The notes beneath the pieces were generated by a model. That model saw only the letters and a program-made list of their open reading frames with translations. It did not search any database and was not told where the DNA came from. Positions 5,885 to 63,851 of a stretch of 64,000 nt of DNA are shown here, piece by piece. The stretch covers positions 64,001 to 128,000 of the forward strand of contig JAHLWR010000002.1 of the NCBI GenBank assembly GCA_019057815.1, read 5' to 3'. This DNA is from Candidatus Heimdallarchaeota archaeon. GTDB lineage: Archaea; Asgardarchaeota; Heimdallarchaeia; Heimdallarchaeales; Heimdallarchaeaceae. The first letter of the stretch is position 1. Each line of letters starts with the position of its first letter. Position numbers and translations under genes: made by a program.

Positions 5885-7324
5885 TTGTTCCCTATGAATC
5901 AAGCTTCTTCCATACGAAAACCGATTAACCAAAGGAATATAGTATTAATTATTATCTCTCTATCTTCATTTATTTCGGCTTTCAGTGGGTCATCTATAAT
6001 AGTTGCAGCTCCTATAATGGGAACAGAGTTGCAAATGGATGCAGCAACACTTAGTTGGTTTGTTACCATCTTTATCTTAGCTACAGCATTATTACAGATA
6101 CCTTTTGGTAAAATAGCTGACCTTTATGGGAGAAAAAAAATCTATTTTATAGGGATGTTAATATTCACCAGTGCTACACTTGCACTAGGTTTTGCTAATT
6201 CAGCAAATTTACTGCTAGCATTCAGATTCGTACAAGGAATTGGTGCAGCACTAGTTTTTGCTACAGGTACAGCTATTCTTACATCTGTTTTTCCTGCAAA
6301 TGAAAAAGGGAAGGCATTTGGTTATAATATAGGAGCTGTTTATTTTGGTTTAACCATAGGTCCTTCTTTAGGCGGAGTCTTAACTCAACATCTTGGATGG
6401 AGAAGTATATTCTATGTTACTGCTTCCTTAGCATTAATAGTTGCTCTTCTGATTGTATGGAAGTTGAAAGGTGAATGGACTAGTGAAATAAAAGAACCAT
6501 TTGATTACATTGGATCTTTAATCTACGTTTCTACTCTCTTTCTTCTTCTTTACGGGTTTAAAGTTCTCCCAGAATATCCAGGATATATAATGATTGGTGG
6601 TTCTATCATATGCGCTGGTACTTTTGTTTGGTGGGAAAGGAGAATAGATAACCCTATCTTAGAACTTAGACTGTTTAAGAAGAACAAATTTTTCACGTTT
6701 GCTAATCTTTCAGCTTTTGCTTTTTACACTTCAACTTCAGCTGTTTCTTTTCTGTTGAGTCTATATTTACAATCAGTAAAAGGATTTACTCCCCAACAAA
6801 CTGGGCTGATTCTTCTAGCAAGACCTATTGTTCAAGCTATTCTGTCTCCAATAGGTGGTAGACTTTCAGACTTTATTGAACACAGGACAATCACAACTAT
6901 AGGAGTAGGAATAGGGTTTGTGAGTCTATTGTTACTAACCTTCCTGAATGAAAATTCGCACCTAAGTCTGATTATAATCAGTTTAGCTCTTGGTGGGCTA
7001 GGATTCGGTTTATTTTCCTCTCCTAATGCTAATTCAATTATGAGCTCAGTTTCAAAAAGATTCTTTGGTGTGGCTTCAGCCTTAATAGGTACAATGAGAA
7101 CTATAGGTCAAACACTAAGTTTGGGTATTGTAACTCTAATATTCGCAGTATTAATCGGTGATACTAGCTCTGAATCACCAGAATATGCAACTCAACTATT
7201 AGAGAGTTCAAAAATAGCTTTTATTATATTTACATCGTTGTGTACTATTGCTGTAGTCTTTTCATTCCTTAGGGGAAAGATGGATCAATTAAAAGAACTA
7301 GATAAAAGTGAGGTAAGTCACTAA
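5885..7324 (+). CDS. MFS transporter, DHA2 (14-TM) family
   Basis: Motif A GKIADLYGRKK, RFVQGIG, GPSLGG, WRSIF; about 14 hydrophobic segments. Confidence 0.92.
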   Translation: MFPMNQASSIRKPINQRNIVLIIISLSSFISAFSGSSIIVAAPIMGTELQMDAATLSWFVTIFILATALLQIPFGKIADLYGRKKIYFIGMLIFTSATLALGFANSANLLLAFRFVQGIGAALVFATGTAILTSVFPANEKGKAFGYNIGAVYFGLTIGPSLGGVLTQHLGWRSIFYVTASLALIVALLIVWKLKGEWTSEIKEPFDYIGSLIYVSTLFLLLYGFKVLPEYPGYIMIGGSIICAGTFVWWERRIDNPILELRLFKKNKFFTFANLSAFAFYTSTSAVSFLLSLYLQSVKGFTPQQTGLILLARPIVQAILSPIGGRLSDFIEHRTITTIGVGIGFVSLLLLTFLNENSHLSLIIISLALGGLGFGLFSSPNANSIMSSVSKRFFGVASALIGTMRTIGQTLSLGIVTLIFAVLIGDTSSESPEYATQLLESSKIAFIIFTSLCTIAVVFSFLRGKMDQLKELDKSEVSH

Positions 7325-7382
7325 ATCATTAATAATCAAAACTATTAATACTTAAAAACTGAGTGAAGGACCTAGACAACAA

Positions 7383-7904
7383 TCATCCAAACACTTCATA
7401 CTTCAAAATGTTGAGCTTATTAACAATTTCTTGAATTGGCTGGTATTCGTCTAGATACATACCAACGGTTTTTATCCTTGTTTCTAAGATATATTTTGAA
7501 AGGTTTGATAGATCATAGTTTTTTAATTCATTAATAGATACAAATTTTGCTTCTGAGGTTTCAAAATGATCTGATACCGCGTTTCCTTCAACATAATCTA
7601 GGCTAAAAACTAAATATAAATCAGAAATAGTCCTATTCTCGTCTTTTTTTTGTGTTGAGTGTCTCAACATTACCAATCCTCCAACTCGAGTTTTCACTCC
7701 TGTTTCTTCTAAAACTTCCCTAACTACCGCTTCAGATAAAGTTTCCCCGATTTCTACATATCCACCAGGGATAGACCATTTTCCTATATTAATACCAAAA
7801 GAATGTTGAATTAAGAGAACTTTTTCTTTATGAACACATATTCCACCTACTCCTAAACGATGTTTTTCAAAATTAGTTGAGGAAAGATTTCTCATGTATT
7901 TCAA
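7383..7904 (-). CDS. NUDIX hydrolase (start may be ATG at 7895)
   Basis: Nudix box GGYVEIGETLSEAVVREVLEETGV. Confidence 0.92.
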   Translation of the reverse strand: MKYMRNLSSTNFEKHRLGVGGICVHKEKVLLIQHSFGINIGKWSIPGGYVEIGETLSEAVVREVLEETGVKTRVGGLVMLRHSTQKKDENRTISDLYLVFSLDYVEGNAVSDHFETSEAKFVSINELKNYDLSNLSKYILETRIKTVGMYLDEYQPIQEIVNKLNILKYEVFG

Positions 7905-8032
7905 ATGTTTTAGAAAATTAAAAGCCTTTTGCTAGAAACTTATTATTTGATTTTAAAAAATATTCAGAAATTGATTGCTTTCCGCTGTTAATTTGATATA
8001 AGATTTATATATTACATAGAGTTCTGATTTTT

Positions 8033-9088
8033 ATGGATTCTAATAAGTGGAAATTTATTGTTAACCCTAACGCAGGGACAAAACTGTGTTTAAAGAGGTG
8101 GGAGAAAGCAGAACCAGTTATTAAGGATAGTGGAATTGATTATGATGTTGTTTTAACTACTGGAGTAAGACAAGGACAAGAACTAGTTAAACAAGCTGTA
8201 AATGATGGTTTTGATAGAATTATTATTGTAAGTGGTGATGGAGTTGTTAACGAAGGAATAAACGGGTTGATGGAACTATCTGAGGAAAAACGTAAAAAAG
8301 TAGTATTTGGAGTTTTACCCTTTGGAACAGGAAATGATATGTGTACAAGTTTGGGAATGCCATGGAATCCAGAAAATTCTGCAAAAACACTAATTAATAA
8401 GACAGCAGTTGCCCCAGCTTCAGTAGGCAAAGTTAACTATCCAGATACAAAGTTTGAAGTGTATTTTGCTAATGTGTTTGACTTTGGGATATCTTCACTT
8501 GTAAATCTAGCAAATTATGAGGGAGAAATGAAATGGATAAAAGGCCCAAATAAATATACATTATTAGCGCTAAAAAAATTAATCCAAGTGAAACAGCGAA
8601 AAGGAACAATAAGGCTTGATGATGGAGATCCAATAGATTTCAGGTTAATGTTCGTAACCATAGGCGTAGGAAAAGCTGTAGGTGGTGGTATGTTGTGTTG
8701 TGTTGACGCTCATCCTCAAAATGATTTCTTTGATCTTTTTATTACCCAAAATGTTTCCAAACTCCAAACTCTCAAAGGTATCAAGACAATCCACAAAGGT
8801 GAACATAAGAAGATGAAAAATACCATCTATACAACAGCAAAGAAAGTTGAAGTGGAATTAGAAAGTCCAATAGCTATGGAACATGATGGAGAAATATATA
8901 TCCCTGAAGATGTTAGTGCTCACGTAATCGCAAAACACATTCCTCTAGCTTATAATGCTCTATACAACACTGAACACCCGTCAATGAAATGGCTTACTCC
9001 AGAGGAACTTGAACAAGGTATTAAAGCAGATGGAACAGCAACAGGTATGTCACATCATAAAGGTCGTACGTGGATGGAAAAGAATTAA
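8033..9088 (+). CDS. Diacylglycerol/sphingosine kinase family lipid kinase
   Basis: VNPNAG, SGDGVVNEGING, LPFGTGND, DGE motifs. Confidence 0.9.
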   Translation: MDSNKWKFIVNPNAGTKLCLKRWEKAEPVIKDSGIDYDVVLTTGVRQGQELVKQAVNDGFDRIIIVSGDGVVNEGINGLMELSEEKRKKVVFGVLPFGTGNDMCTSLGMPWNPENSAKTLINKTAVAPASVGKVNYPDTKFEVYFANVFDFGISSLVNLANYEGEMKWIKGPNKYTLLALKKLIQVKQRKGTIRLDDGDPIDFRLMFVTIGVGKAVGGGMLCCVDAHPQNDFFDLFITQNVSKLQTLKGIKTIHKGEHKKMKNTIYTTAKKVEVELESPIAMEHDGEIYIPEDVSAHVIAKHIPLAYNALYNTEHPSMKWLTPEELEQGIKADGTATGMSHHKGRTWMEKN

Positions 9089-53498: not shown

Positions 53499-56400
53499 CT
53501 ATTTGTAATAAGCTGATTTTCTCGAAAACAGAGCTATTACTAGAACAATTATTGTCAATGCTGCTGCACTGATAAGAGGGTACAAGTATGGCAAGGATGA
53601 AAATGTTATTTCAATATCTGTTGATATTAGTGGTATCTTGATCTTAATAACTGGTGAAAATGCTGACCATTCAAATGAGAATTGCTCTCCTTCTATCACT
53701 TCAGGTACATCCATTTTTATCTGGTGAACTTCTGAAACCATATTAGTAATCTCAAAGTTTGTATTAGCTGTTTGGAAAGTTGTTCCTTGGATTTCATAAA
53801 GAGACGAATATATTATAATTATCGGAGGAATAACAATTTCTCCCTCAATATTACTGAATACTTCTTGGATTCTAACCATTTCACCGGGATTTAAAGTCAC
53901 GTTAGCTAGATTTACTTTAGTGCATGAGAGGGTCGCTGAAGATGTTGTTGTAAGTAAGATTTCATTCTCTTCAGTGATATAGTGACTTGTTACTGATAAC
54001 GAATCAGCTAGTGAATTATCCAAAACCTGCGATATTGTAAGATTAGATGAAGAAAGACCAGTATTCGTTATTTCATAAATTACGGTTACTTGATTGTCTT
54101 CTGTAATTTGGTAATCAAAATCTAGAGATAACTCAGGTACAGGAAAACTTGGTCTTGTCTGATTTTGAAGTAAGAGTGGTGGAACAAGAATACCCGTAAC
54201 CATTGTAGAGCTTACAACATTCTTAGTTTCTCCACTAAATGTCCAAATTAATGGTTCGTTGGACCAAGGATTAGGAATCTCTAATGAATCTTCTGATTTA
54301 TCAGAAATAAAACTAATTAATGCCACATAAGTATTCAAACCTATATTGCTATTTGCATTTATTGAAAATTCTTTTACAAAACCTGTGTTACTATCTATAT
54401 GGCTAATACTAAAGGATTTTATTAGAACAATTTCTGTTGGCAACCACAGATAATTAAGTTTCAAGTTAACAATATCTACACGAACATCATATGCAGTTAG
54501 TGTTCCAACATTCTGGATATCAAGCAGAAAAGAAACCTTATCACCTACAACATAGATTGATTCATTTGAAAGTAACGTACTTCTAAGTACAGCCTCTTCA
54601 TCGCCTATTTGGAGATTGAGACCGTTTGTTAACCCATAATATTCTCTTCCAATTACATCTTGATATTTGAATCTGCTACCTAATGAAACAAATGTATCCG
54701 AAGCTGCATAATAATCACTAAGAAACCTTCCACTGATATTATTTTGCGCAAACATAGCTATCATGAGATTCTTATAATCGTATTCATAACTTTGGAATAA
54801 TATGTAGTCAAAAACTTCATCATATGATTGCACCTCAAAACGAAAAATACCAAACCTATCATTTGTTGTCGGAACATTCGCCAAATTCCATGAGATTTCT
54901 ACTGATTCATTTACATCAAGAACAGGTATATTACAGTAAAGATATGACCCAAAGATTGTTGAAACGTATGTAAAATCATTTTGATTTAATTGAAACAAAA
55001 TGATCTCATCATAGAGATTTTCGTACAGTGTATCATAGGCATTGTTAATTGCTGGTAAAAGAAGTTGATAAACTTCTTGAATCTTACCTGTTAGATTAGT
55101 ATAGAAATCCTCGATATCAAAATCTTTCATATATTCATCGAGTTTTTGTATAATAACATTGTATACATCCAAAGGAATACCATTTGAGCTCAATATTTCT
55201 AAATATTCATTTAACACGATAGTTGTGTTATCCATCCACCTTACAAGCATACCTTCAGTAATATTCTCATACCATCCTTGAATATCAAGTACTGGAATAG
55301 TAACATTTACATCTACAATATTATCGTAATAAACGCTAATTTGTATGAACGATGAAACAGTTTCATCGATTCTTATATCTTCTTTTAGAACAGGTGCATT
55401 AGCCCCATGTAACAATATTTCTTTAAAATCCTCTGGAATTGGAAAAACTATTGTTGTGTTTATTGCTGGAGACGAACCAACATTTCTAACACTATAAACC
55501 ATATCTAATACTCCATTTTGATTTAGATTATCATCAGAATAAGAAGAAGTTGTAACAACCCGTGGATATTCCATATCTAAGAATGTAGCAGGATAGTACT
55601 CAACTAGTGCATCAAAAGCTTGAAATCTTGGTATTAGAAGAAAACGTAGAGACCACTCAAAAACACCTGTAATCTCTGGAGCAAAATTATCTGGAGAGGG
55701 AGAGAGATGAGTGATATTTGCGGGAAAAGGCAGTTTGAAACTCACTTTCGATGAAATAGAACGAGGATTTGAAATGAGCTTTTCTCCTAAAACATTACTA
55801 ACATTCATGCTTCGCAATTGATTATTTTTACTTATACCTTTTTCAAGACCAAGCATAGCTTTACGGACTGTGAAGAACTGTCCATCATCAGATTTTTTAA
55901 GGGTATAACCAAATGCATATATTATCGGATTAGCTTTTATTCGCTCAAAAAAGATGTCTTCAAAATTACCATTACTACTATCATTATCTGGAGCAAAAAC
56001 GTCAACAAAAGCGACCAGAGCTTTAGAATAGGATAAAGCAGCCATTAAGGATAACTGAACTGAATATATACCGATTCTTTGGATATTATAGATTTCAAGC
56101 ATCACACCATAATGGTCATAAAAAACCTGTTGTACATGTTGGTACATATTTTGAATAATTTGTAGATTTGTTGTTTGAATTACTATTTTTACGCTCAAAC
56201 CATTTGGAAATTGCCAAAGAGGGTTTGTCCAGATTTTAGAAAAATTAGTTTGTTCAGTCACTATAAAATCAATTCGCGATACCCTTAATAGTGCAGGAGA
56301 TAGAAAATCAAAGTGAGTTTCATTTCTCATTCCATTTAATTCTAGATTCAAGAGAGCTGATTCTTCTTTTCCTGCAATTATTTCTATGCTCTCATAATAT

Positions 56401-56564
56401 AGATTGTTAAAAAAAGAAGAAGTGGAAGAAGTAATTGAGCCAGTTTCTACTTCTGATGCTTTAACAGAAGGAGTAAAAAACAAAACAGAGAGTAACACAG
56501 TGAGTACAAAAACGCATTTCACGATAGATGGGGTATTTATTTTCCAATATATTTCCGCACTCAT
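53499..56564 (-). CDS. Large secreted surface (S-layer-like) glycoprotein with CARDB/Ig-like modules and C-terminal TM
   Basis: Signal peptide; repeated V.NVG.S.A / ITNTG Ig-type motifs; many NxS/T sequons; C-terminal TM + RK. Confidence 0.75.
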   Translation of the reverse strand: MSAEIYWKINTPSIVKCVFVLTVLLSVLFFTPSVKASEVETGSITSSTSSFFNNLYYESIEIIAGKEESALLNLELNGMRNETHFDFLSPALLRVSRIDFIVTEQTNFSKIWTNPLWQFPNGLSVKIVIQTTNLQIIQNMYQHVQQVFYDHYGVMLEIYNIQRIGIYSVQLSLMAALSYSKALVAFVDVFAPDNDSSNGNFEDIFFERIKANPIIYAFGYTLKKSDDGQFFTVRKAMLGLEKGISKNNQLRSMNVSNVLGEKLISNPRSISSKVSFKLPFPANITHLSPSPDNFAPEITGVFEWSLRFLLIPRFQAFDALVEYYPATFLDMEYPRVVTTSSYSDDNLNQNGVLDMVYSVRNVGSSPAINTTIVFPIPEDFKEILLHGANAPVLKEDIRIDETVSSFIQISVYYDNIVDVNVTIPVLDIQGWYENITEGMLVRWMDNTTIVLNEYLEILSSNGIPLDVYNVIIQKLDEYMKDFDIEDFYTNLTGKIQEVYQLLLPAINNAYDTLYENLYDEIILFQLNQNDFTYVSTIFGSYLYCNIPVLDVNESVEISWNLANVPTTNDRFGIFRFEVQSYDEVFDYILFQSYEYDYKNLMIAMFAQNNISGRFLSDYYAASDTFVSLGSRFKYQDVIGREYYGLTNGLNLQIGDEEAVLRSTLLSNESIYVVGDKVSFLLDIQNVGTLTAYDVRVDIVNLKLNYLWLPTEIVLIKSFSISHIDSNTGFVKEFSINANSNIGLNTYVALISFISDKSEDSLEIPNPWSNEPLIWTFSGETKNVVSSTMVTGILVPPLLLQNQTRPSFPVPELSLDFDYQITEDNQVTVIYEITNTGLSSSNLTISQVLDNSLADSLSVTSHYITEENEILLTTTSSATLSCTKVNLANVTLNPGEMVRIQEVFSNIEGEIVIPPIIIIYSSLYEIQGTTFQTANTNFEITNMVSEVHQIKMDVPEVIEGEQFSFEWSAFSPVIKIKIPLISTDIEITFSSLPYLYPLISAAALTIIVLVIALFSRKSAYYK

Positions 56565-56664: not shown

Positions 56665-57504
56665 TTACCACACCAAACCATTCATAATCAGAAACGCCAG
56701 CCCGTTTAGAGTGTAACTTGTCACTAAAGCGACAATTCCTGCCTTTTCAATCCTTAATTCTTTTATAACTATAATTGCCTCAATAAGTAAACCCAAAGTA
56801 ATAATTTGTGTAAAAATTAAAATTACAAACAACCATATTTCAAGATCTAACGGAGATACTGGATAATCAAAATCTACTACTAAAGATTCTAGAAGACTAA
56901 AAAGTACTAGTGGTATCTGTACTATTACAATACTTTGAAAAAGAGCCAATTTTTCTTTCTTTCTTTTGAAAAGAAATGAAGAAAATAATTCACATAGAAT
57001 ATATGTTACAAGAGTAGAAACAATAAAGAAAATGGGTGCGAAATATGCAGGAGATATTAAAGAAGGAAATAAGAATACAGGACTTGTTGACATGAAAAAA
57101 GTGGACACAGTTAATCCTACAAATAGAAGGAGTGTAAACCCTAGAGAACGAACAGAATCTGCATATATTAACTGAAAAACAGATCGAAGAAATAATGTAT
57201 GAAGAAAGGATAATTTTCCATATGCTTGGATTTCAGGAGCAGAGACATCTAGCTCATCTTCAATTAATACATAAGCTCTTCTTCCCTTTTCAGACAACAA
57301 GTATTTTTTAGTAGCATTTTGAGTTATTAATTCTCCAAGAGTATCTAAATGATGGTATAATGTACCAACTTTTGTACCAAAACGTGATTGAATGTCGGTA
57401 AACGAAACAACCCTCTTTTCTCCAATAAACACAAGTAAGTCCCTTCTTATTTGATTGGAGAGAGCTTTCCAAATATTCGAAGAAAGCTGTTTCTTGGAAT
57501 TCAT
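56665..57504 (-). CDS. ArsR-type wHTH fused to a multi-TM membrane domain
   Basis: KALSNQIRRDLL..SFTDI..GTLYHHL..YLLSEKG followed by about 5 TM. Confidence 0.8.
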   Translation of the reverse strand: MNSKKQLSSNIWKALSNQIRRDLLVFIGEKRVVSFTDIQSRFGTKVGTLYHHLDTLGELITQNATKKYLLSEKGRRAYVLIEDELDVSAPEIQAYGKLSFLHTLFLRSVFQLIYADSVRSLGFTLLLFVGLTVSTFFMSTSPVFLFPSLISPAYFAPIFFIVSTLVTYILCELFSSFLFKRKKEKLALFQSIVIVQIPLVLFSLLESLVVDFDYPVSPLDLEIWLFVILIFTQIITLGLLIEAIIVIKELRIEKAGIVALVTSYTLNGLAFLIMNGLVW

Positions 57505-57551: not shown

Positions 57552-58694
57552 TCAGTAATGGTTTATAAGATTGTATAGTGTATCACGTTCGACAGGAATA
57601 CGATTTGCATCTTTTATTATTGCTACAAAATCTTCCACTGTCATCAATTCACCATACGTTCCACCAGCTTTTTTTGTTATATTCTCAGTAAATAAAGTAC
57701 CCCCAAGATCATTTACTCCTGCATCTAGAGAAATTTGGGCTAGTTTTGGTCCAAGTTTTACCCAAGATGTTTGTATATTATTGATAGATTCACCTAAATA
57801 GAGTCTAGCTGCACTATAAAGAGCTAAATCGTGCATTCCTGAACTACTAGGTCGTGCACCTAGAAAGCGGTATAGAATAGTGTTTTGATGCATAAATGAT
57901 AATGGAACAAATTCAGTAAAACCCTTAGATAGTTCTTGTATCGTTTTGAGTAATACTAAATGCTCTGCTTCATCTATTAGTGATTCAACATGACCATACA
58001 TCATTGTTGCTGACGATTTTATTCCTACACGATGCCCCGTAAGAACAATGTTTACCCATTGTTCAGTAGATATTTTATCAGGGCAAATTACTTTTCTTAC
58101 TTCATCTACTAGTATTTCAGCAGCTGTTCCAGGAAAGGAACCTAGACCACTTTTTTTAAGTTCTTTGAAGATATCTTCTATATTCTCCCCCGAAAGTTGT
58201 GACATATAAGCTATTTCTGCAGGAGAAAAAGCGTGAATGTGTATGTTGGGCGCAGTTCGCTTTATTGTTTTCAACAAATCCTTATAATAAGCATAATTTA
58301 TCTGGGGGTCAAGCCCTCCTTGGATACAAACTTCTGTACATCCTCTAGCTAATGCTTTCTGCGTTTCTATTTCAATATCTTCAAGTGACATCCTTTTTGA
58401 AAGAGATCGATCGTTTCTAGAACCAGATTTGAAAGAACAAAACCTACATGTCCCTATACAATTATCTGTGAAATTAATATTTTGATTTATTACAAAAGTA
58501 ACATTTTTCCCTACTTGTTCTATTCTTGCTTCATCAGCTAATTCCATTTGAACTCTCAAATCTTTCCCCCTTTTCTTTAACATTGAAGTAAGTTGCATAA
58601 TTTCTTCTATGTTAGATTCTCTGAAACTTGAGATACTGATATGTTCATCAAGTTTAGGGGGAGAGAGGTTTTTCATGTCAATCTTTGTCTCCAA
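57552..58694 (-). CDS. cofH: FO synthase subunit 2 (radical SAM)
   Basis: NINFTDNCIGTCRFCSF, CIQGG, HAFSPAEI, PGTAAEIL, TMMYGH, IQTSWVKLG, NDLGGTL..E.I...AG. Confidence 0.92.
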   Translation of the reverse strand: METKIDMKNLSPPKLDEHISISSFRESNIEEIMQLTSMLKKRGKDLRVQMELADEARIEQVGKNVTFVINQNINFTDNCIGTCRFCSFKSGSRNDRSLSKRMSLEDIEIETQKALARGCTEVCIQGGLDPQINYAYYKDLLKTIKRTAPNIHIHAFSPAEIAYMSQLSGENIEDIFKELKKSGLGSFPGTAAEILVDEVRKVICPDKISTEQWVNIVLTGHRVGIKSSATMMYGHVESLIDEAEHLVLLKTIQELSKGFTEFVPLSFMHQNTILYRFLGARPSSSGMHDLALYSAARLYLGESINNIQTSWVKLGPKLAQISLDAGVNDLGGTLFTENITKKAGGTYGELMTVEDFVAIIKDANRIPVERDTLYNLINHY

Positions 58695-59739
58695 TTATTA
58701 TACGAATTCTATTGCTTAAATATTTTTCATAAAGAGGGTAAACAGGTAACCTTTCCTCAAGAATATACCTGTCCTTTTCAAGTAGCTTCTTAATTTTCTT
58801 CTCTTCTGGCCAGTCCATTGTAGGATTGATGAAATCTATTGTAACAGGAGAAATACCTCCTAAATCATTAGCTCCATGAGTTAAAGCATCTAGAATACGT
58901 TCACTGTTTAAGTTAGGTGGTACCTGAATATTTACAGATTTGGGTAGTATCACTCTTGCAAGAGATACTGAATCAAGAAAGTCTTTTTTTGATGGAGGGA
59001 GTCTATCAGCCATTGGTGTAGAAGGTATTGGATTGAAGTTTTGAATAATTACCTCTTGGATGTGGGAATATTGTTTGCTAATATTAGCAATAGATAGCAG
59101 AGATTCTATCCTTTCTTCTATATTTTCACCAATTCCAACAAGAATTCCAGTAGTAAAAGGAATTTTGAGCTTACCAGCATTCTCAATTGTCTCAAGTCTT
59201 TTTTTCGGATCCTTACCTGGGGAATTGCAATGAGGATGACCGTTCTCCATTAGACGTTTACTCACAGTTTCAAGCATCAATCCCATACTTGCATTTGAAT
59301 CCTTGAGATACGAAAGTTCTTCATAGGAGAGTATTCCAAGGTTTGAATGAGGTAATAAAGCATGTTCCAATGCAACTTCACAAAATTTTTTTACATATTC
59401 AACGGTTGAAGAACAACCATGATTTGCTAAAAAATCATGAGCATTCGAATACTTCGCTTCAGGTTTTTCTCCTAGAGTTAACAGAACTTCACTGCATTTG
59501 GTTCTTTTTGCTTCATTAAGGAGTTCAATGTATTTTGATGGAGGAATCCAAGATGAAACATCATCTGATACAAAACCACAATAATCACACTTGTTTCTAC
59601 ATTGACGAGTTACAGGAACGAAAATGTTACGTGAAAAAGTTATTTTGTTTTTGTAATTCTTAAAACGTTTCTCATTTGCTTTATGAGCAAGTTCTTCAGA
59701 GTTATTGATAACCAGAGATAAATACTCGTCGAGACTCAT
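58678..59739 (-). CDS. cofG: FO synthase subunit 1 (radical SAM)
   Basis: TFSRNIFVPVTRQCRNKCDYC, LPHSN, SMGLMLE, FTTGILVGIGE, QVPPNL, DLGGISP. Confidence 0.95.
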   Translation of the reverse strand: MSLDEYLSLVINNSEELAHKANEKRFKNYKNKITFSRNIFVPVTRQCRNKCDYCGFVSDDVSSWIPPSKYIELLNEAKRTKCSEVLLTLGEKPEAKYSNAHDFLANHGCSSTVEYVKKFCEVALEHALLPHSNLGILSYEELSYLKDSNASMGLMLETVSKRLMENGHPHCNSPGKDPKKRLETIENAGKLKIPFTTGILVGIGENIEERIESLLSIANISKQYSHIQEVIIQNFNPIPSTPMADRLPPSKKDFLDSVSLARVILPKSVNIQVPPNLNSERILDALTHGANDLGGISPVTIDFINPTMDWPEEKKIKKLLEKDRYILEERLPVYPLYEKYLSNRIRIIIGDKD

Positions 59740-60422
59740 TTCTTTTCCTCATCCAGTAATATCATTGAAACAAGAATACCCTCACTAACGCGTTTTGTTT
59801 GTATTATTTTAACTGATGTTGTTTTTTTCAAAGTGTTTTGTGATTCATCTCTTAATAGAGGAATACCCCCTAGATGTCCTACTAGAATCGGAGCGAAATA
59901 GATAAACATTTTATCAACTAATCTTCGTTGAATAAACTGTGAAATAATTGTTGATCCTCCTTCAACAAGTAATGTTTTAACATTAAAATCGTTTTTCAAA
60001 TGCTCGAGTATCTGCGTTAAATCAAGAAAATTAGTTGTTTCTTCTTCACCAACAGGAATAATTGTCACTCCAAGATTGTTAAATTCATCTCTTTTTTCGA
60101 TAGGATGGGTTCTAGAAACAAAAATTACAGTAGGATACTTTTTTTGTTCTTTGATTACATTAGAATCTATAGGAATTGAACCTTTAGAATCGAGAATAAC
60201 GCGAAGAGGGTGTTTTTTACGAGAAGTAACGTATCTAACGGTAAGCAATGGGTTATCAATGATAACAGTGTTTTTTCCTACAAGGATAGCATCAACACTA
60301 TTTCTCAATGAATGGACTCTTTCTAAATCTTCTCTACTTGACAGATGTAAAGCTCCTTTGTTAGAAGCAATGAAACCATCTAAGGAAGAAGCAACATTGA
60401 TAAACACTTTTGGTCTTTTCAT
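59736..60422 (-). CDS. arfC: 2,5-diamino-6-ribosylamino-4(3H)-pyrimidinone 5'-phosphate reductase (stand-alone RibD C-terminal domain)
   Basis: ASSLDG, VHSLR..DAILVG..TV..DNPLLTVR, LLVEGG; no deaminase domain. Confidence 0.85.
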   Translation of the reverse strand: MKRPKVFINVASSLDGFIASNKGALHLSSREDLERVHSLRNSVDAILVGKNTVIIDNPLLTVRYVTSRKKHPLRVILDSKGSIPIDSNVIKEQKKYPTVIFVSRTHPIEKRDEFNNLGVTIIPVGEEETTNFLDLTQILEHLKNDFNVKTLLVEGGSTIISQFIQRRLVDKMFIYFAPILVGHLGGIPLLRDESQNTLKKTTSVKIIQTKRVSEGILVSMILLDEEKK

Positions 60423-61585
60423 TTTATTTTCTTTCCGTTAAACATCTGAAATATAATATCATTAGGTGTTGCTCGCAAAGTTATAGCTGTGTAAACATCT
60501 TTCGAATATTTTGTTCTAACACTTTCAAGATTTATTGCTACAAAATCTGCACTATAACCCGTTTCAAGTCTACCTATTTTTCTTTTTGCGATTATACCAG
60601 CGTTTACTGTTAATGCTTTCAGAATCTCAATTGGTTCTATTACTTTTCCTAGACTCAGACAACCTAACAAAGTATTTTTCATCAAGTGAAATGGATCTGG
60701 ATTAGACAACAAGATATTATCTGTTCCCAATCCTAGAAGCACTCCTTCATCCAGAATTTCCTTTATAGGAGGGAATTTCAAACCAAAATACATTGAAGTT
60801 AGTGGACAACACACAACGCTTACTTCTCGTACCTTCAATAGCTGTAAATCGTCTTTTATATCTGCATAGTTAGCATGAACAACAAAATCAATATCATACA
60901 AATCCAAAGCATGCTGTACATCGGTTTTACCAAAAGCATCAAGAGATCTAGAAACAATGTCTTCAGTTTCTGAAACATGGAGACTCAAAATAATATCGGG
61001 ATATTTAGATTTAAGAAAATCTATATTTTTTATATGTTCCTCATATTTATCATGAAGAGTGAAAATTGTTGAAAAACCTAACCCCTCACATGTAGCATGC
61101 CCTAGAATGTTATTGACATTACAATCCTTATTAGGACGACCAAGAACAATTCCTCTAATTGATGAGAGAAAAGGTACAAGAGCTTTCTTTAGCATAACTA
61201 CACCTGGCAAACCGCCTTCTCTATAATCAATGAATGAAGTAAAACCATTTTCGATAAGCATCTGTAAACTTAATTTCATTCCATCGATAAGAGCAGGTGA
61301 CGCAATTTCTTCTATTTTTGAATGTTTGAGACCATTCTTTCCAACAACTTCTTGTAATGACAAACCATATCCTTGATCTTTAAAAAAAGAGTCTCCAATA
61401 TGAGTATGAGCATTGATGAACCCAGGAATAAGTACAGAGTGAAAAGGAAGAGAAAAATCGGGTTCAGCTAAACTTTTAGAGGATATTTGTTGAATGTAAC
61501 CTTCAGCATTAATTTCAATATACAAATCATGTTCTAGTTGCAGTCCATTACCAATAAGAGCTTTAGGAGCAAAAATAACAGACAC
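60419..61585 (-). CDS. Metal-dependent amidohydrolase, deaminase-type
   Basis: PGFINAHTHIGDS, HVSE (HxxE), VHAN, LGTDN, G..ADF. Confidence 0.88.
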   Translation of the reverse strand: MSVIFAPKALIGNGLQLEHDLYIEINAEGYIQQISSKSLAEPDFSLPFHSVLIPGFINAHTHIGDSFFKDQGYGLSLQEVVGKNGLKHSKIEEIASPALIDGMKLSLQMLIENGFTSFIDYREGGLPGVVMLKKALVPFLSSIRGIVLGRPNKDCNVNNILGHATCEGLGFSTIFTLHDKYEEHIKNIDFLKSKYPDIILSLHVSETEDIVSRSLDAFGKTDVQHALDLYDIDFVVHANYADIKDDLQLLKVREVSVVCCPLTSMYFGLKFPPIKEILDEGVLLGLGTDNILLSNPDPFHLMKNTLLGCLSLGKVIEPIEILKALTVNAGIIAKRKIGRLETGYSADFVAINLESVRTKYSKDVYTAITLRATPNDIIFQMFNGKKIK

Positions 61586-61710
61586 AAAAAAAATATGCTG
61601 ATGAGTTATAAAACACTTTTGCCAATTTTAGAAAAGGACTAACAAACAATAAAAGCATAAATCATTACTTATAAGTCTGTGTCAGAGAAAATATCAATTA
61701 GAACGCTTTC

Positions 61711-62133
61711 TTATTGATTTCTTTTCAAAATTCCAACTCTCTCTCTGAGTTGTCCAAAATGACCTATAACATGAAAAATGTTCTGCTTAATAGCATCTTT
61801 AATAGTTGTTTGTTCTCCCCATTGAAAAGCAAATTCTTCCTCTATTTTCTCATTATCAAAATCTTGGATAGCTTGCATCATACGATCAATTGCACAATTT
61901 AAATCATGATTTGGGTCATTTGTTGGGGTATATTTCTTGGAATCTTTTAGAAACCAAGTTCCTGCATCTTCAAATATAGCTTGTACTAAATGATTGAAAG
62001 TTTCAATTATTGTAAACTCAGTTGGTAAGACTCTATAATTCCAAGCTTTTTCTAATTCAATGATCTCAATGGTTTTCAATCCAAAAGCGTGAAGATACTC
62101 CCAAAACTCAATATAAATAGAAATCTGTTTCAT
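61711..62133 (-). CDS. DinB family protein
   Basis: WNYR, TI.E.FNHL, H..GH.GQL motifs. Confidence 0.8.
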   Translation of the reverse strand: MKQISIYIEFWEYLHAFGLKTIEIIELEKAWNYRVLPTEFTIIETFNHLVQAIFEDAGTWFLKDSKKYTPTNDPNHDLNCAIDRMMQAIQDFDNEKIEEEFAFQWGEQTTIKDAIKQNIFHVIGHFGQLRERVGILKRNQ

Positions 62134-62279
62134 AAAAGAAATACTTTCTTACAGTTAATTAGGTTTTTTGCCAATTTTAATATATACTTATATCCCATAT
62201 ACAAAGGATGTAAAAAAGAGGAAGCGTTGAAGATTACTCTTATTATTACTTCGTTTCTATTAAGTTTCTGACCGCTGGT

Positions 62280-63851
62280 CTATTTTTTCTTTGTCTTCTT
62301 TGAGATTATCCTTGTGAGTATTAAGGGAACTATTAGCATAATGAGAATAAATGTGAAGTTTGATTGATTTTTATCTGTAGTAGATTCAACTGAATGTACG
62401 GTAGGTTCATCGAGAGGATATAGATCTTCTGAACTTGCAGAACCATCAATAGAATAAGAACCTGTTCCTGACCAATCTGACCAGTAATTACCTTCAAGTG
62501 TTTCAGTACTATACCAATAGTTGTTAGCACCAGAATCATACGCTTGGGAAGTACCACCAAGGTTATTGTCTACAAAGGTATTATGGTGAAAAAGAATATT
62601 ATCAGAAATAGATGAGGAGTATACTCCATATTTCTCATTTTCTTGTAGAAGATTGTAAGTAACGACACAAAAATCAGAAGAGGAAAGATAGATGCCATAG
62701 TTGTCATTGTTGTTGCAAGTGTTGTTGGAAATAGTAGAATTACTAGAATAGTAAAGATAGATGCCAATATCGTTGTTATCGCTGCACATGTTGTTTGTAA
62801 CAGTAGAACTACCAGAATCATCAAGCAAGATGCCTATGCAGTTATTGCTGCAAGTGTTGTTTACGACAGTAGAACTACCAGAATCATCAAGCACGATACC
62901 TCGTAAGTTGTTATCGCAAGTGTTGTTGGAAACAGTATAATCACTAGAAGACAAAAGATAGATACCTCTGTAATTGCTGATGCAAGTGTTGTTAATGACA
63001 GTAGAATCACCAGAAGAGGAAAGAGAGATGCCATCCCTGTTGTTGTTGATGCAAGTGTTGTTGACAACAGTAGAACCAACAGAAGAGGAAAGAGAGATAC
63101 CAATATCATTGTTACTACTACAAGTGTTGTTGGAAATAGTAGAAATAGTAGAAGATAAAAGATAGATTCCGCTGAAGTTGTTGTTGTAGCAAGTGTTGTT
63201 GGAAACAGTCGAACTACCAGACGAGGATAACAAGATGCCATAGTTGTTATTATTGCTGCAAGTGTTGTTAGTAACAGTAGAACCATAAGAAAATCGAAGA
63301 TAGATACCGCTGTAGTTGTTGTTGTTGCAAGCGTTGTTAGTAACAGTAGAAATACTAGAACATAAAAGTTTGATACCATAGTTATTGTTACTGCAAGTGT
63401 TGTTGGAAACGGTAGAAATACCAGAATTCCAAAGATAGATGCCAATATCGTTGTTATTGTTGCACGTATTATTATTGACAGTAGCTGTTACATAAGCGAC
63501 ATCATCGATATAAATGCCATACTTTACTGCGTCAACATAGCAGTTGCGAACAATGAAATATTTTGTTGTATCAGTAATATAAATACCATTTTGACTCGTT
63601 GTTATAATATTGTAACCCTCAATAAGATAAGGATCCTCGACAGTTCCTGTTCCTGGAAAAACTTCAAAATCGCTGTCACTTGTTATTTCAATAGGATCAT
63701 GAGATATTAATGCAAAAGATATATAGTTAGCAGAAGAAGACAATACAGAATCGAATTTGACTGTTGTATTATTATTGCTAAATAAAAATATTATTATCAA
63801 TAAACCTATTAAAAATATATTAGTTATAGTTAAGTGTTTTTTTGACATCAT
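62280..63851 (-). CDS. Right-handed parallel beta-helix (NosD/PbH1) surface protein with C-terminal TM anchor
   Basis: HDPI.I..DSDF...G.GT..DPY.IEG cap, 12 NNxC repeats, GNYWSD, D.YPL, TM + KKTKKK. Confidence 0.9.
   Translation of the reverse strand: MMSKKHLTITNIFLIGLLIIIFLFSNNNTTVKFDSVLSSSANYISFALISHDPIEITSDSDFEVFPGTGTVEDPYLIEGYNIITTSQNGIYITDTTKYFIVRNCYVDAVKYGIYIDDVAYVTATVNNNTCNNNNDIGIYLWNSGISTVSNNTCSNNNYGIKLLCSSISTVTNNACNNNNYSGIYLRFSYGSTVTNNTCSNNNNYGILLSSSGSSTVSNNTCYNNNFSGIYLLSSTISTISNNTCSSNNDIGISLSSSVGSTVVNNTCINNNRDGISLSSSGDSTVINNTCISNYRGIYLLSSSDYTVSNNTCDNNLRGIVLDDSGSSTVVNNTCSNNCIGILLDDSGSSTVTNNMCSDNNDIGIYLYYSSNSTISNNTCNNNDNYGIYLSSSDFCVVTYNLLQENEKYGVYSSSISDNILFHHNTFVDNNLGGTSQAYDSGANNYWYSTETLEGNYWSDWSGTGSYSIDGSASSEDLYPLDEPTVHSVESTTDKNQSNFTFILIMLIVPLILTRIISKKTKKK
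62670..63490 (-). repeat. About 12 tandem 66-69-bp beta-helix repeat units
   Basis: Recurrent gcaagtgttgtt (NNTC) on the plus strand; unit GIYL.SS..STV.NNTC.NN. Confidence 0.85.

What the first reader, a model, noticed from the sequence alone, without database searches (positions are those of the whole stretch)
57552..61585. Amidohydrolase coupled to arfC-cofG-cofH: candidate for the missing archaeal riboflavin/F420 pyrimidine deaminase
Seen: four overlapping genes in pathway-related order: amidohydrolase, (ATGA overlap) stand-alone RibD reductase, (ATGA overlap) cofG, (17-nt overlap) cofH. The reductase has no deaminase domain. The amidohydrolase has the HxH...HxxE...H...D set typical of nucleobase deaminases. 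Known: CofG/CofH need 5-amino-6-ribitylamino-2,4-pyrimidinedione; archaea reduce first (ArfC) and must then deaminate C2, and to my knowledge that archaeal deaminase is not firmly assigned. Inference: this enzyme deaminates 2,5-diamino-6-ribitylamino-pyrimidinone 5'-phosphate, or alternatively performs the ArfB-type deformylation. The operon also shows de novo FO/F420 synthesis capacity in this lineage.
Basis: partly seen in the sequence, partly recalled or inferred. Interest (0 to 1): 0.75.

Follow-up and report, generated by a model that had tools for sequence, protein, structure and literature searches.

The report
Predicted archaeal FO-pathway pyrimidine deaminase operon
A Heimdall-type Asgard archaeon has a tightly packed four-gene operon for the chromophore of coenzyme F420, and its first gene very probably encodes the never-assayed archaeal pyrimidine deaminase; this protein family (MJ0699, 'PyrD') was already proposed for that step in 2010 and 2017, so this is a well-supported rediscovery.

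Summary
Four co-oriented minus-strand genes are an amidohydrolase (60419-61585), a stand-alone ArfC/RibD_C reductase, CofG and CofH, joined by ATGA overlaps.

The amidohydrolase has the HxH / HxxE / H / D deaminase set. Its model (pLDDT 95) matches COG0402 deaminases such as isocytosine, guanine and MTA deaminases.

Its pairing with arfC is conserved in 59 of 80 loci from Asgard, Nitrososphaeria and Bathyarchaeia. In 151 Asgard genomes it occurs only where ArfC occurs. It is present in 70 of 71 genomes that have a consumer of the product (CofH or RibH). No RibD/Rib2-type deaminase was found.

This genome uses a true GTP cyclohydrolase II, so no deformylase is needed. It lacks RibB, RibH and riboflavin synthase, as do 30 of 31 genomes of its family, so here the trunk feeds FO only.

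The most likely function is deamination of 2,5-diamino-6-ribitylamino-pyrimidinone 5'-phosphate.

The idea is not new. The family clusters with the Methanocaldococcus MJ0699-type protein, the 'PyrD' candidate of Osterman 2010 and Rodionova 2017. I found no report that it has been tested. Earlier agents of this scan reached the same verdict on other genomes.

The parts
61606..61613 (-). TATA-like box (TTTTATAA) 21-28 nt upstream of the amidohydrolase start. It is the putative archaeal promoter of the operon, probably giving a leaderless or short-leader transcript.
   Evidence: Read directly from the sequence. This is inference only; no archaeal promoter tool was available.
60419..61585 (-). Amidohydrolase-superfamily deaminase of the MJ0699/PRK07213 ('PyrD') family. 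It is the predicted 2,5-diamino-6-ribitylamino-4(3H)-pyrimidinone 5'-phosphate deaminase and the first gene of the operon.
   Evidence: Family and residues:
- PF01979 at 3e-27; NF005552 at 240 bits, below the cut-off of 294.
- Invariant H60, H62, H203, E206, H237 and D289.

Fold:
- AlphaFold model with pLDDT 95.1.
- Foldseek TM 0.82-0.86 to COG0402 deaminases.

Orthology:
- One clade with the Methanococcales members against the genome's own paralogues, at 100% SH-aLRT.
59736..60422 (-). ArfC / Rib7-type pyrimidine nucleotide reductase. It has a RibD_C domain only and no deaminase domain.
   Evidence: PF01872 at 3e-45 over residues 4-217. TIGR00227 scores 162 bits against a cut-off of 150. TIGR01508 scores 162 bits against a cut-off of 186. 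It overlaps the amidohydrolase by ATGA.
58678..59739 (-). CofG, a radical-SAM subunit of FO synthase.
   Evidence: NF004884 scores 416 bits and TIGR03550 scores 403 bits, both over their cut-offs. It overlaps ArfC by ATGA.
57552..58694 (-). CofH, a radical-SAM subunit of FO synthase. The start is either the TTG at 58694 or the ATG at 58676.
   Evidence: TIGR03551 scores 443 bits against a cut-off of 374, and PF19288 (CofH_C) also matches. The start-codon alternatives were read from the sequence.
56665..57504 (-). A 279-aa protein with an N-terminal winged-helix-like region, 47 nt downstream of cofH. It is a conserved neighbour and possibly co-transcribed. Whether it belongs to the system is uncertain.
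   Evidence: Weak DUF7347 and SdpR-like hits over residues 10-78. It is found in the same position after cofH in Heimdall loci L010, L012 and L014, at 97-60% identity.

Best explanation
The operon makes the deazaflavin FO, the chromophore of F420, from the GTP-derived pyrimidine.

Proposed pathway:
1. RibA, encoded elsewhere in the genome, opens GTP to 2,5-diamino-6-ribosylamino-4(3H)-pyrimidinone 5'-phosphate.
2. ArfC reduces the ribosyl side chain to ribityl.
3. The amidohydrolase hydrolytically removes the 2-amino group, giving 5-amino-6-ribitylamino-uracil 5'-phosphate.
4. An unidentified phosphatase removes the phosphate.
5. CofG and CofH condense the product with tyrosine to give FO.

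The deaminase is a mononuclear-metal (beta/alpha)8 enzyme. H60, H62, H203 and D289 hold the metal and the attacking water. E206 of the HxxE motif shuttles protons to the ring N and the leaving ammonia. H237 hydrogen-bonds the water. This is the mechanism of guanine, isocytosine and cytosine deaminases, whose substrates carry the same 2-amino-4-oxopyrimidine or an analogous amidine.

What is shown: gene identities, fold, catalytic residues, conserved coupling and the phylogenetic profile.
What is inferred: the substrate, the order of steps and the metal.
For: Fold and residues:
- The deaminase-type motif set is invariant in 76 homologues.
- It aligns with the motifs of solved COG0402 deaminases.
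- The model (pLDDT 95) matches isocytosine/8-oxoguanine, guanine and MTA deaminases.

Gene linkage:
- The gene lies immediately upstream of arfC in 59 of 80 loci across Heimdall, Jord/Freya, Hel, Nitrososphaeria and Bathyarchaeia.
- 58 of those 59 junctions overlap or are at most 16 nt.
- In riboflavin-making Asgard lineages the same pair sits beside ribC-ribH instead of cofGH.

Phylogenetic profile in 151 Asgard genomes:
- 0 of about 80 ArfC-negative genomes have the orthologue.
- 70 of 71 genomes with CofH or RibH have it or a divergent copy next to ribH.
- The two ArfC-positive genomes that lack it also lack both CofH and RibH.

No competing enzyme for the step:
- No RibD/Rib2-type deaminase was found.
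- No deformylase is needed, because RibA keeps the Tyr105 and Cys54/65/67 equivalents and ArfA is absent.
- The trunk genes are kept although RibB, RibH and RibE are not found in this genome, and RibH is not found in 30 of 31 family genomes. This places the enzyme upstream of the riboflavin/FO branch point.

Literature:
- The same family was independently predicted for this step from clustering and co-occurrence (PMC5397151; PMC8305020).
Against: - No biochemical or genetic test exists for any member of the family that I could find.
- The window protein scores below the NCBIfam cut-off for NF005552 (240 against 294 bits).
- In Methanococcales, Methanobacteriales and Altiarchaeales the gene is not linked to arfC.
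- Substrate specificity, including whether the ribityl or ribosyl form and whether the phosphorylated form is used, cannot be read from the sequence.
- Sequence identity to characterised deaminases is only 15-22%.
- One RibH-positive genome (G141) shows neither ArfC nor the amidohydrolase.
Confidence: 0.75

Rival explanations
1. The enzyme has the same chemistry but the bacterial order of steps. It deaminates the ribosyl compound (DAROPP) before ArfC reduces it.
For: The gene order is deaminase then reductase, as in the domain order of bacterial RibD. Nothing in the sequence fixes the state of the side chain.
Against: Established knowledge is that M. jannaschii ArfC reduces the 2,5-diamino ribosyl compound, so reduction precedes deamination in archaea (Graupner 2002, as cited in PMC5397151 and PMC8256712). 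Gene order is not evidence for reaction order.
Confidence: 0.1
2. The enzyme is a 5'-deoxyadenosine / MTA / SAH-type deaminase. It would clear the inhibitory by-product of the radical-SAM enzymes CofG and CofH.
For: It sits in an operon with two radical-SAM genes. Its closest solved structures include MTA/SAH and adenosine deaminase homologues.
Against: - The conserved partner is arfC, not cofGH. Most Nitrososphaeria and Jord/Freya loci have the pair without cofGH within 8 kb.
- The orthologue is not found in any ArfC-negative Asgard genome, although radical-SAM enzymes are universal.
- The genome has a separate DadD-like paralogue (NF005557, 503 bits) and two MTA-deaminase-like paralogues. 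The operon protein scores only 65 bits on NF005557.
- It forms a clade apart from those paralogues.
Confidence: 0.04
3. The enzyme is an ArfB-type deformylase acting on a formylamino-pyrimidine intermediate.
For: In some other archaea the gene lies between arfA and arfC. This comes from earlier scan notes and was not checked here. ArfB orthologues are missing from many archaea (PMC8305020).
Against: - This genome, and 30 of 31 genomes of its family, use GTP cyclohydrolase II with the catalytic Tyr. That enzyme releases formate itself, and no GCH III is present.
- The HxxE motif is typical of deaminases.
- The protein has no Creatininase-family match, and Creatininase is the ArfB fold.
Confidence: 0.03
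4. The enzyme is a salvage or detoxification deaminase for another base (guanine, pterin, isocytosine or 8-oxoguanine) and only happens to be linked.
For: Fold neighbours include guanine and isocytosine deaminases.
Against: - Translational coupling to arfC is conserved across phyla.
- Co-occurrence with ArfC and with consumers of the product is strict.
- The family-specific invariant residues D65, K87, D120, E123 and N290 are absent from those enzymes in the profile alignments.
Confidence: 0.05

Closest known systems
MJ0699 / HVO_2483 family = NCBIfam NF005552 (PRK07213 'chlorohydrolase'). This is the predicted archaeal pyrimidine deaminase 'PyrD' of Osterman, Overbeek & Rodionov 2010 and Rodionova et al. 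2017.
   Same: - Same protein clade: 100% SH-aLRT against the genome's own paralogues.
- Same invariant residues.
- Same kind of evidence as in the literature, namely clustering and co-occurrence with riboflavin-pathway genes.
- The Methanocaldococcus member scores 582 bits on NF005552. It lies beside MscS, PriL and the PolD small subunit. That fits MJ0699 next to MJ0700-0702, though those locus tags come from my memory.
   Different: - The Asgard copy is only about 32% identical to the Methanococcales proteins.
- It scores below the curated cut-off (240 against 294 bits).
- It heads a cofG-cofH (FO) operon in a lineage that appears to lack the riboflavin branch altogether.
COG0402 amidohydrolase deaminases with solved structures: isocytosine/8-oxoguanine deaminase (7WW2, 8IS4), guanine deaminase (2UZ9, 6OHB, 2I9U) and MTA/SAH deaminases (4F0R, 1P1M).
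   Same: They share the (beta/alpha)8 barrel with the N-terminal beta-sandwich and the HxH, HxxE, H and D catalytic set. They carry out hydrolytic deamination of an exocyclic amine on a pyrimidine-type ring. Guanine and isocytosine share the 2-amino-4-oxopyrimidine of the proposed substrate.
   Different: - Identity is 15-22%.
- The protein is about 50 residues shorter (388 aa against 430-450 aa).
- It has family-specific invariant residues, including several basic ones: D65, K69, K87, D120, R122, E123, R150 and N290.
- Where these fall on predicted barrel strands (D120/R122/E123, R150, N290), they lie at or just after the strand's C-terminal end. Functionally important residues cluster at that face in this fold. 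That would suit a phosphorylated ribityl substrate. This is inference.
The RibD N-terminal domain and fungal Rib2 deaminase (cytidine-deaminase fold).
   Same: They carry out the same proposed pathway step. Rib2 acts on the same reduced substrate, DARIPP (PMC8256712).
   Different: The fold is unrelated, so this would be a non-orthologous displacement. The operon protein has no PF00383 domain, and the genome's two CDA-fold genes are nucleotide-salvage types.

Membership tests
Amidohydrolase superfamily, COG0402-type deaminases | A (beta/alpha)8 barrel fold with an N-terminal beta-sandwich | tested here: met
   The AlphaFold model has pLDDT 95.1 and pTM 0.94. Foldseek gives E 1e-28 to 1e-20 and TM 0.75-0.86 to 3LNP, 4GBD, 4F0R, 8IS4, 2I9U and 6OHB.
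Amidohydrolase superfamily, COG0402-type deaminases | The metal and catalytic set: HxH (strand 1), H plus HxxE (strand 5), H (strand 6) and D (strand 8) | tested here: met
   H60, H62, H203, E206, H237 and D289 are invariant in 76 sequences. They align with the HxH, H-x-x-E, vH-t and GTD motifs of 3LNP and 4DYK.
Amidohydrolase superfamily, COG0402-type deaminases | A bound divalent metal and hydrolytic deaminase activity | not testable with these tools
   This needs purified protein.
MJ0699 / NF005552 (PRK07213) predicted archaeal pyrimidine deaminase 'PyrD' | A score at or above the curated NCBIfam cut-off of 294 bits | tested here: not met
   The score is 240.3 bits over the full length, residues 3-383 of the protein against positions 3-378 of the model. 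The next-best family scores 71 bits, and the genome's next-best gene scores 79 bits.
MJ0699 / NF005552 (PRK07213) predicted archaeal pyrimidine deaminase 'PyrD' | Orthology: one clade with the Methanococcales members, apart from other COG0402 paralogues | tested here: met
   In a tree of 76 family members plus 4 paralogues from this genome, the family is one side of a branch with 100% SH-aLRT. In the Asgard genomes, orthologues score at least 256 bits and full-length paralogues at most about 165 bits. The 171-192-bit hits in between are split fragments or divergent copies that lie next to arfC.
MJ0699 / NF005552 (PRK07213) predicted archaeal pyrimidine deaminase 'PyrD' | Chromosomal clustering and co-occurrence with riboflavin/FO trunk genes, which was the basis of the published prediction | tested here: met
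   59 of 80 loci have arfC directly downstream. The profile across 151 Asgard genomes agrees.
MJ0699 / NF005552 (PRK07213) predicted archaeal pyrimidine deaminase 'PyrD' | That MJ0699 itself is a member of this family | tested here: inconclusive
   NF005552 scores over its cut-off in the M. jannaschii control set. The Methanocaldococcus sp. member (582 bits) lies beside MscS, PriL and PolD-small genes, which fits MJ0700-0702 as I remember those tags. No record naming MJ0699 was retrieved.
RibD / Rib2 cytidine-deaminase-fold pyrimidine deaminase | A CDA-fold zinc domain (PF00383), fused to or clustered with RibD_C | tested here: not met
   The operon proteins have no PF00383 domain. The genome's two PF00383 genes are ComEB-like and cytidine-deaminase-like and are unlinked to the operon. 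In ArfC-bearing Asgard genomes the TIGR00326 matches cover only positions 117-342 of the model, essentially the reductase half.
ArfB formamide hydrolase (creatininase fold) | A Creatininase-family domain, plus a need for deformylation after GTP cyclohydrolase III | tested here: not met
   The operon protein matches only Amidohydro_1 and Amidohydro_3. GCH III was not found. GCH II is present with its catalytic Tyr and Cys residues.
DadD / MTA-SAH deaminase | An equivalog-level match to NF005557 or NF012037 | tested here: not met
   The operon protein scores 64.6 and 38.9 bits against cut-offs of 522 and 779. A separate paralogue scores 503 bits on NF005557.

The most novel reading that the evidence does not exclude
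In Heimdallarchaeaceae the 'riboflavin' trunk (RibA, ArfC and this deaminase) would survive only to feed FO/F420 synthesis, while riboflavin itself is scavenged. RibB, RibH, archaeal riboflavin synthase and RibE were not found, but a CTP-dependent riboflavin kinase is kept. That would make these genomes a natural dissection showing that the MJ0699-type amidohydrolase works upstream of the flavin/deazaflavin branch point. They would also offer a clean genetic background for proving its function.
Probability: 0.55. Interest if true: 0.45.

Novelty: new member of a known kind. Interest (0 to 1): 0.35.

Why it matters
The deamination of the reduced diaminopyrimidine is the last catalytic step of archaeal riboflavin/F420 precursor synthesis without an experimentally assigned enzyme; the phosphatase step is also open. 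Confirming the MJ0699-type amidohydrolase would close that gap. It would also document a non-orthologous displacement of the CDA-fold RibD/Rib2 deaminase by a TIM-barrel enzyme, and it would correct the widespread 'chlorohydrolase' and 'amidohydrolase family protein' annotations. The Asgard operon adds no new idea. It does add unusually clean comparative evidence: the GCH II input rules out a deformylase role, and the FO-only context places the enzyme on the shared trunk.

Tried and rejected
Complex prediction:
- Amidohydrolase + ArfC (collected) gave no verdict and is not used as evidence either way.

Confirming that MJ0699 belongs to this family:
- The homologue search and cluster look-up returned Methanocaldococcus proteins but no record carrying the MJ0699 name.
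- Paper searches for MJ0699, MJ0700-0702 and HVO_2483 found only PMC8305020.
- The supplement of PMC5397151 is not held.
- PMC3262898 and PMC134922 are not held.

Looking for an experimental test of the family:
- Searches found none.
- The M. maripaludis RB-TnSeq preprint does not mention the gene.

Active-site geometry:
Active-site distances and a phosphate pocket could therefore not be measured.

Apparent counter-examples:
- G110 and G114 have ArfC but no amidohydrolase. They also lack CofH and RibH, and their RibD_C gene sits among unrelated genes.
- G055 and G155 turned out to have divergent copies directly beside ribH.

Rejected readings: deformylase, 5'-deoxyadenosine deaminase and unrelated salvage deaminase (see the rival explanations).

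Full report
**Observation.** Four co-oriented ORFs lie on the minus strand.
- 60419-61585: 388 aa, GTG start. It matches Amidohydro_1 (PF01979) at 3e-27. Its best NCBIfam hit is NF005552/PRK07213 'chlorohydrolase' at 240 bits, below the cut-off of 294.
- 59736-60422: 228 aa with RibD_C only.
- 58678-59739: CofG, 416 bits.
- 57552-58694: CofH, 443 bits.

The first two junctions are ATGA overlaps. CofH overlaps CofG by 17 nt if it starts at the TTG at 58694, or starts 1 nt after the CofG stop at the ATG at 58676. A TTTTATAA box lies 21-28 nt upstream of the first gene. Homologues identify the organism as a Heimdallarchaeaceae (Asgard) archaeon. The window is part of a 3.7-Mb genome that is 95% complete.

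**The enzyme.** Across 76 homologues the invariant residues are H60, H62, D65, K87, D120, E123, H203, E206, H237, D289 and N290. K69, R122, R150 and R371 are nearly invariant.

The AlphaFold model is confident, with pLDDT 95.1. Its best structural matches are COG0402 deaminases at TM 0.75-0.86 and only 15-22% identity:
- MTA/SAH and adenosine-type deaminases;
- isocytosine/8-oxoguanine deaminase;
- atrazine chlorohydrolase;
- guanine deaminase.

A profile search aligns the HxH, HxxE, H and D motifs with those of the solved enzymes. The chemistry is therefore that of a mononuclear-metal hydrolytic deaminase. The proposed substrate is a substituted isocytosine, the same 2-amino-4-oxopyrimidine that guanine and isocytosine deaminases attack.

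**Context in this genome.**
- The only CDA-fold genes are a ComEB-like dCMP deaminase and a cytidine deaminase, next to RNase P and ribosomal genes.
- GTP cyclohydrolase II is present and keeps the equivalents of E. coli Tyr105 and Cys54/65/67.
- GTP cyclohydrolase III was not found, so no deformylase is required.
- RibB, the lumazine synthase / archaeal riboflavin synthase family and RibE were not found.
- CofD, two CofE genes and a CTP-dependent riboflavin kinase are present.
- Four other COG0402 paralogues exist: one DadD-like (503 bits on the 5'-deoxyadenosine deaminase model), two N-ethylammeline chlorohydrolase / MTA-SAH-deaminase-like, and one SsnA-like.

**Conservation.** A pattern scan of species-representative genomes returned 80 loci.
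- In 59 of them arfC follows the amidohydrolase directly, and 58 of those junctions overlap or are at most 16 nt.
- These loci span Heimdall, Jord/Freya, Hel, Nitrososphaeria and Bathyarchaeia.
- cofG and cofH join the pair in Heimdall and in some Hel, Bathyarchaeia and Nitrososphaerales loci.
- In Methanococcales, Methanobacteriales and Altiarchaeales the gene is unlinked to arfC.

Within the GTDB family (31 genomes):
- the amidohydrolase is in 31;
- CofH is in 30;
- RibA is in 30;
- RibH is in 1, next to a RibBA fusion.

**Phylogenetic profile.** In 151 Asgard genomes at least 80% complete:
- 71 have ArfC.
- 67 have a clear orthologue of the amidohydrolase, and all 67 are among the ArfC-positive genomes.
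- No genome scores over the cut-off for bifunctional RibD, and in the ArfC-bearing genomes the match covers only the reductase half.
- 64 have CofH and 30 have RibH, which gives 71 genomes with at least one consumer of the product.

The four apparent exceptions were examined.
- G110 and G114 have an isolated RibD_C gene and neither consumer.
- G055 and G155 have a divergent copy directly beside ribH.

With those resolved, 70 of 71 consumer-positive genomes carry the enzyme. The remaining genome, G141, lacks ArfC as well. In riboflavin-making lineages the pair lies in ribC-ribH-amidohydrolase-arfC clusters, for example G036 and G066. The enzyme therefore follows ArfC whichever downstream branch is present, which places it on the shared trunk. 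Related genomes are not independent samples, but the pattern spans at least nine GTDB families.

**Comparison with the literature.** Rodionova et al. 2017 (PMC5397151) state that orthologues of the RibD deaminase domain are apparently missing in Archaea. They add that a candidate archaeal-specific pyrimidine deaminase, 'PyrD', was proposed by Osterman et al. 2010 from clustering and co-occurrence, and that the prediction 'remains to be tested'. Pfeiffer and Dyall-Smith 2021 (PMC8305020) name HVO_2483 and MJ0699 as that candidate and still list it as needing experimental confirmation.

Several lines link MJ0699 to this family.
- The Methanocaldococcus member scores 582 bits on NF005552. It lies next to MscS, PriL and PolD small-subunit genes, which matches MJ0700-0702 as I remember those locus tags.
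- NF005552 scores over its cut-off in the M. jannaschii control.
- A tree puts the window protein and the Methanococcales proteins in one family, separated from the genome's own paralogues with 100% SH-aLRT.

I found no experimental test in the searchable literature. Earlier agents of this scan reached the same 'rediscovery' verdict on other genomes. I formed my reading before seeing those notes, and I tested each element here.

**Verdict.** The deformylase alternative is disfavoured in this lineage. Novelty is low, because this is a divergent Asgard member of an already proposed, still untested candidate family. The modest new points are the GCH II input and the FO-only context in Heimdallarchaeaceae.

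Noticed in passing
window 61617-62179 (minus strand): A 535-nt segment (about 61631-62165) carries a 140-aa ORF (61711-62133) with no family match. It is flanked by a perfect 14-nt direct repeat, TAAAATTGGCAAAA. The segment is absent from the 90-95%-identical sister genome (L010), which has a single copy of the repeat. It is either a small insertion with a target duplication just upstream of the operon promoter, or a repeat-mediated deletion in the sister genome.
   Followed up: partly
own genome G000 and its GTDB family (31 genomes): In the own genome RibB, RibH/archaeal riboflavin synthase and RibE were not found, but RibA, the amidohydrolase, ArfC, CofG/H, CofD, CofE (two copies) and a CTP-dependent riboflavin kinase are present. 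Across the family, RibH was found in 1 of 31 genomes, the amidohydrolase in 31, and RibA and CofH in 30 each. The lineage appears to be a riboflavin auxotroph that keeps the trunk only for FO/F420.
   Followed up: partly
window 56665-57504 and 53499-56564 (minus strand): A 279-aa protein with a weak winged-helix N-terminus and a 1021-aa protein with no family match follow cofH in the same order in Heimdall loci L010, L012 and L014 (60% and 42% identity in the more distant loci). They may be co-transcribed with the operon. Their function is unknown.
   Followed up: partly
G004:C1:242281-243332: This is the one family genome with a lumazine synthase. The gene lies next to a 400-aa RibBA-type fusion, a bacterial-style arrangement that suggests horizontal acquisition of a riboflavin cluster.
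   Followed up: no
L090 (G110:C2) 7825-8541 and L091 (G114:C189) 7106-7819: Two Heimdall-class genomes carry an isolated RibD_C paralogue next to a zinc-ribbon/Yip1 membrane protein. They have no amidohydrolase, CofH or RibH. It is probably a pyrimidine-reductase-family protein with a different role.
   Followed up: partly
G033:C10, G072:C1, G055:C217, G155:C280, G144:C177: One Heimdall-order family (f2) has a strongly divergent version of the amidohydrolase, scoring about 100-170 bits on the family profile. It lies directly beside ribH and/or a divergent RibD_C gene.
   Followed up: partly
window 62280-63851 (minus strand): A 523-aa NosD-like parallel beta-helix repeat protein lies upstream of the operon. 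The sister genome has further partial paralogous copies in tandem (L010 4636-7832).
   Followed up: no
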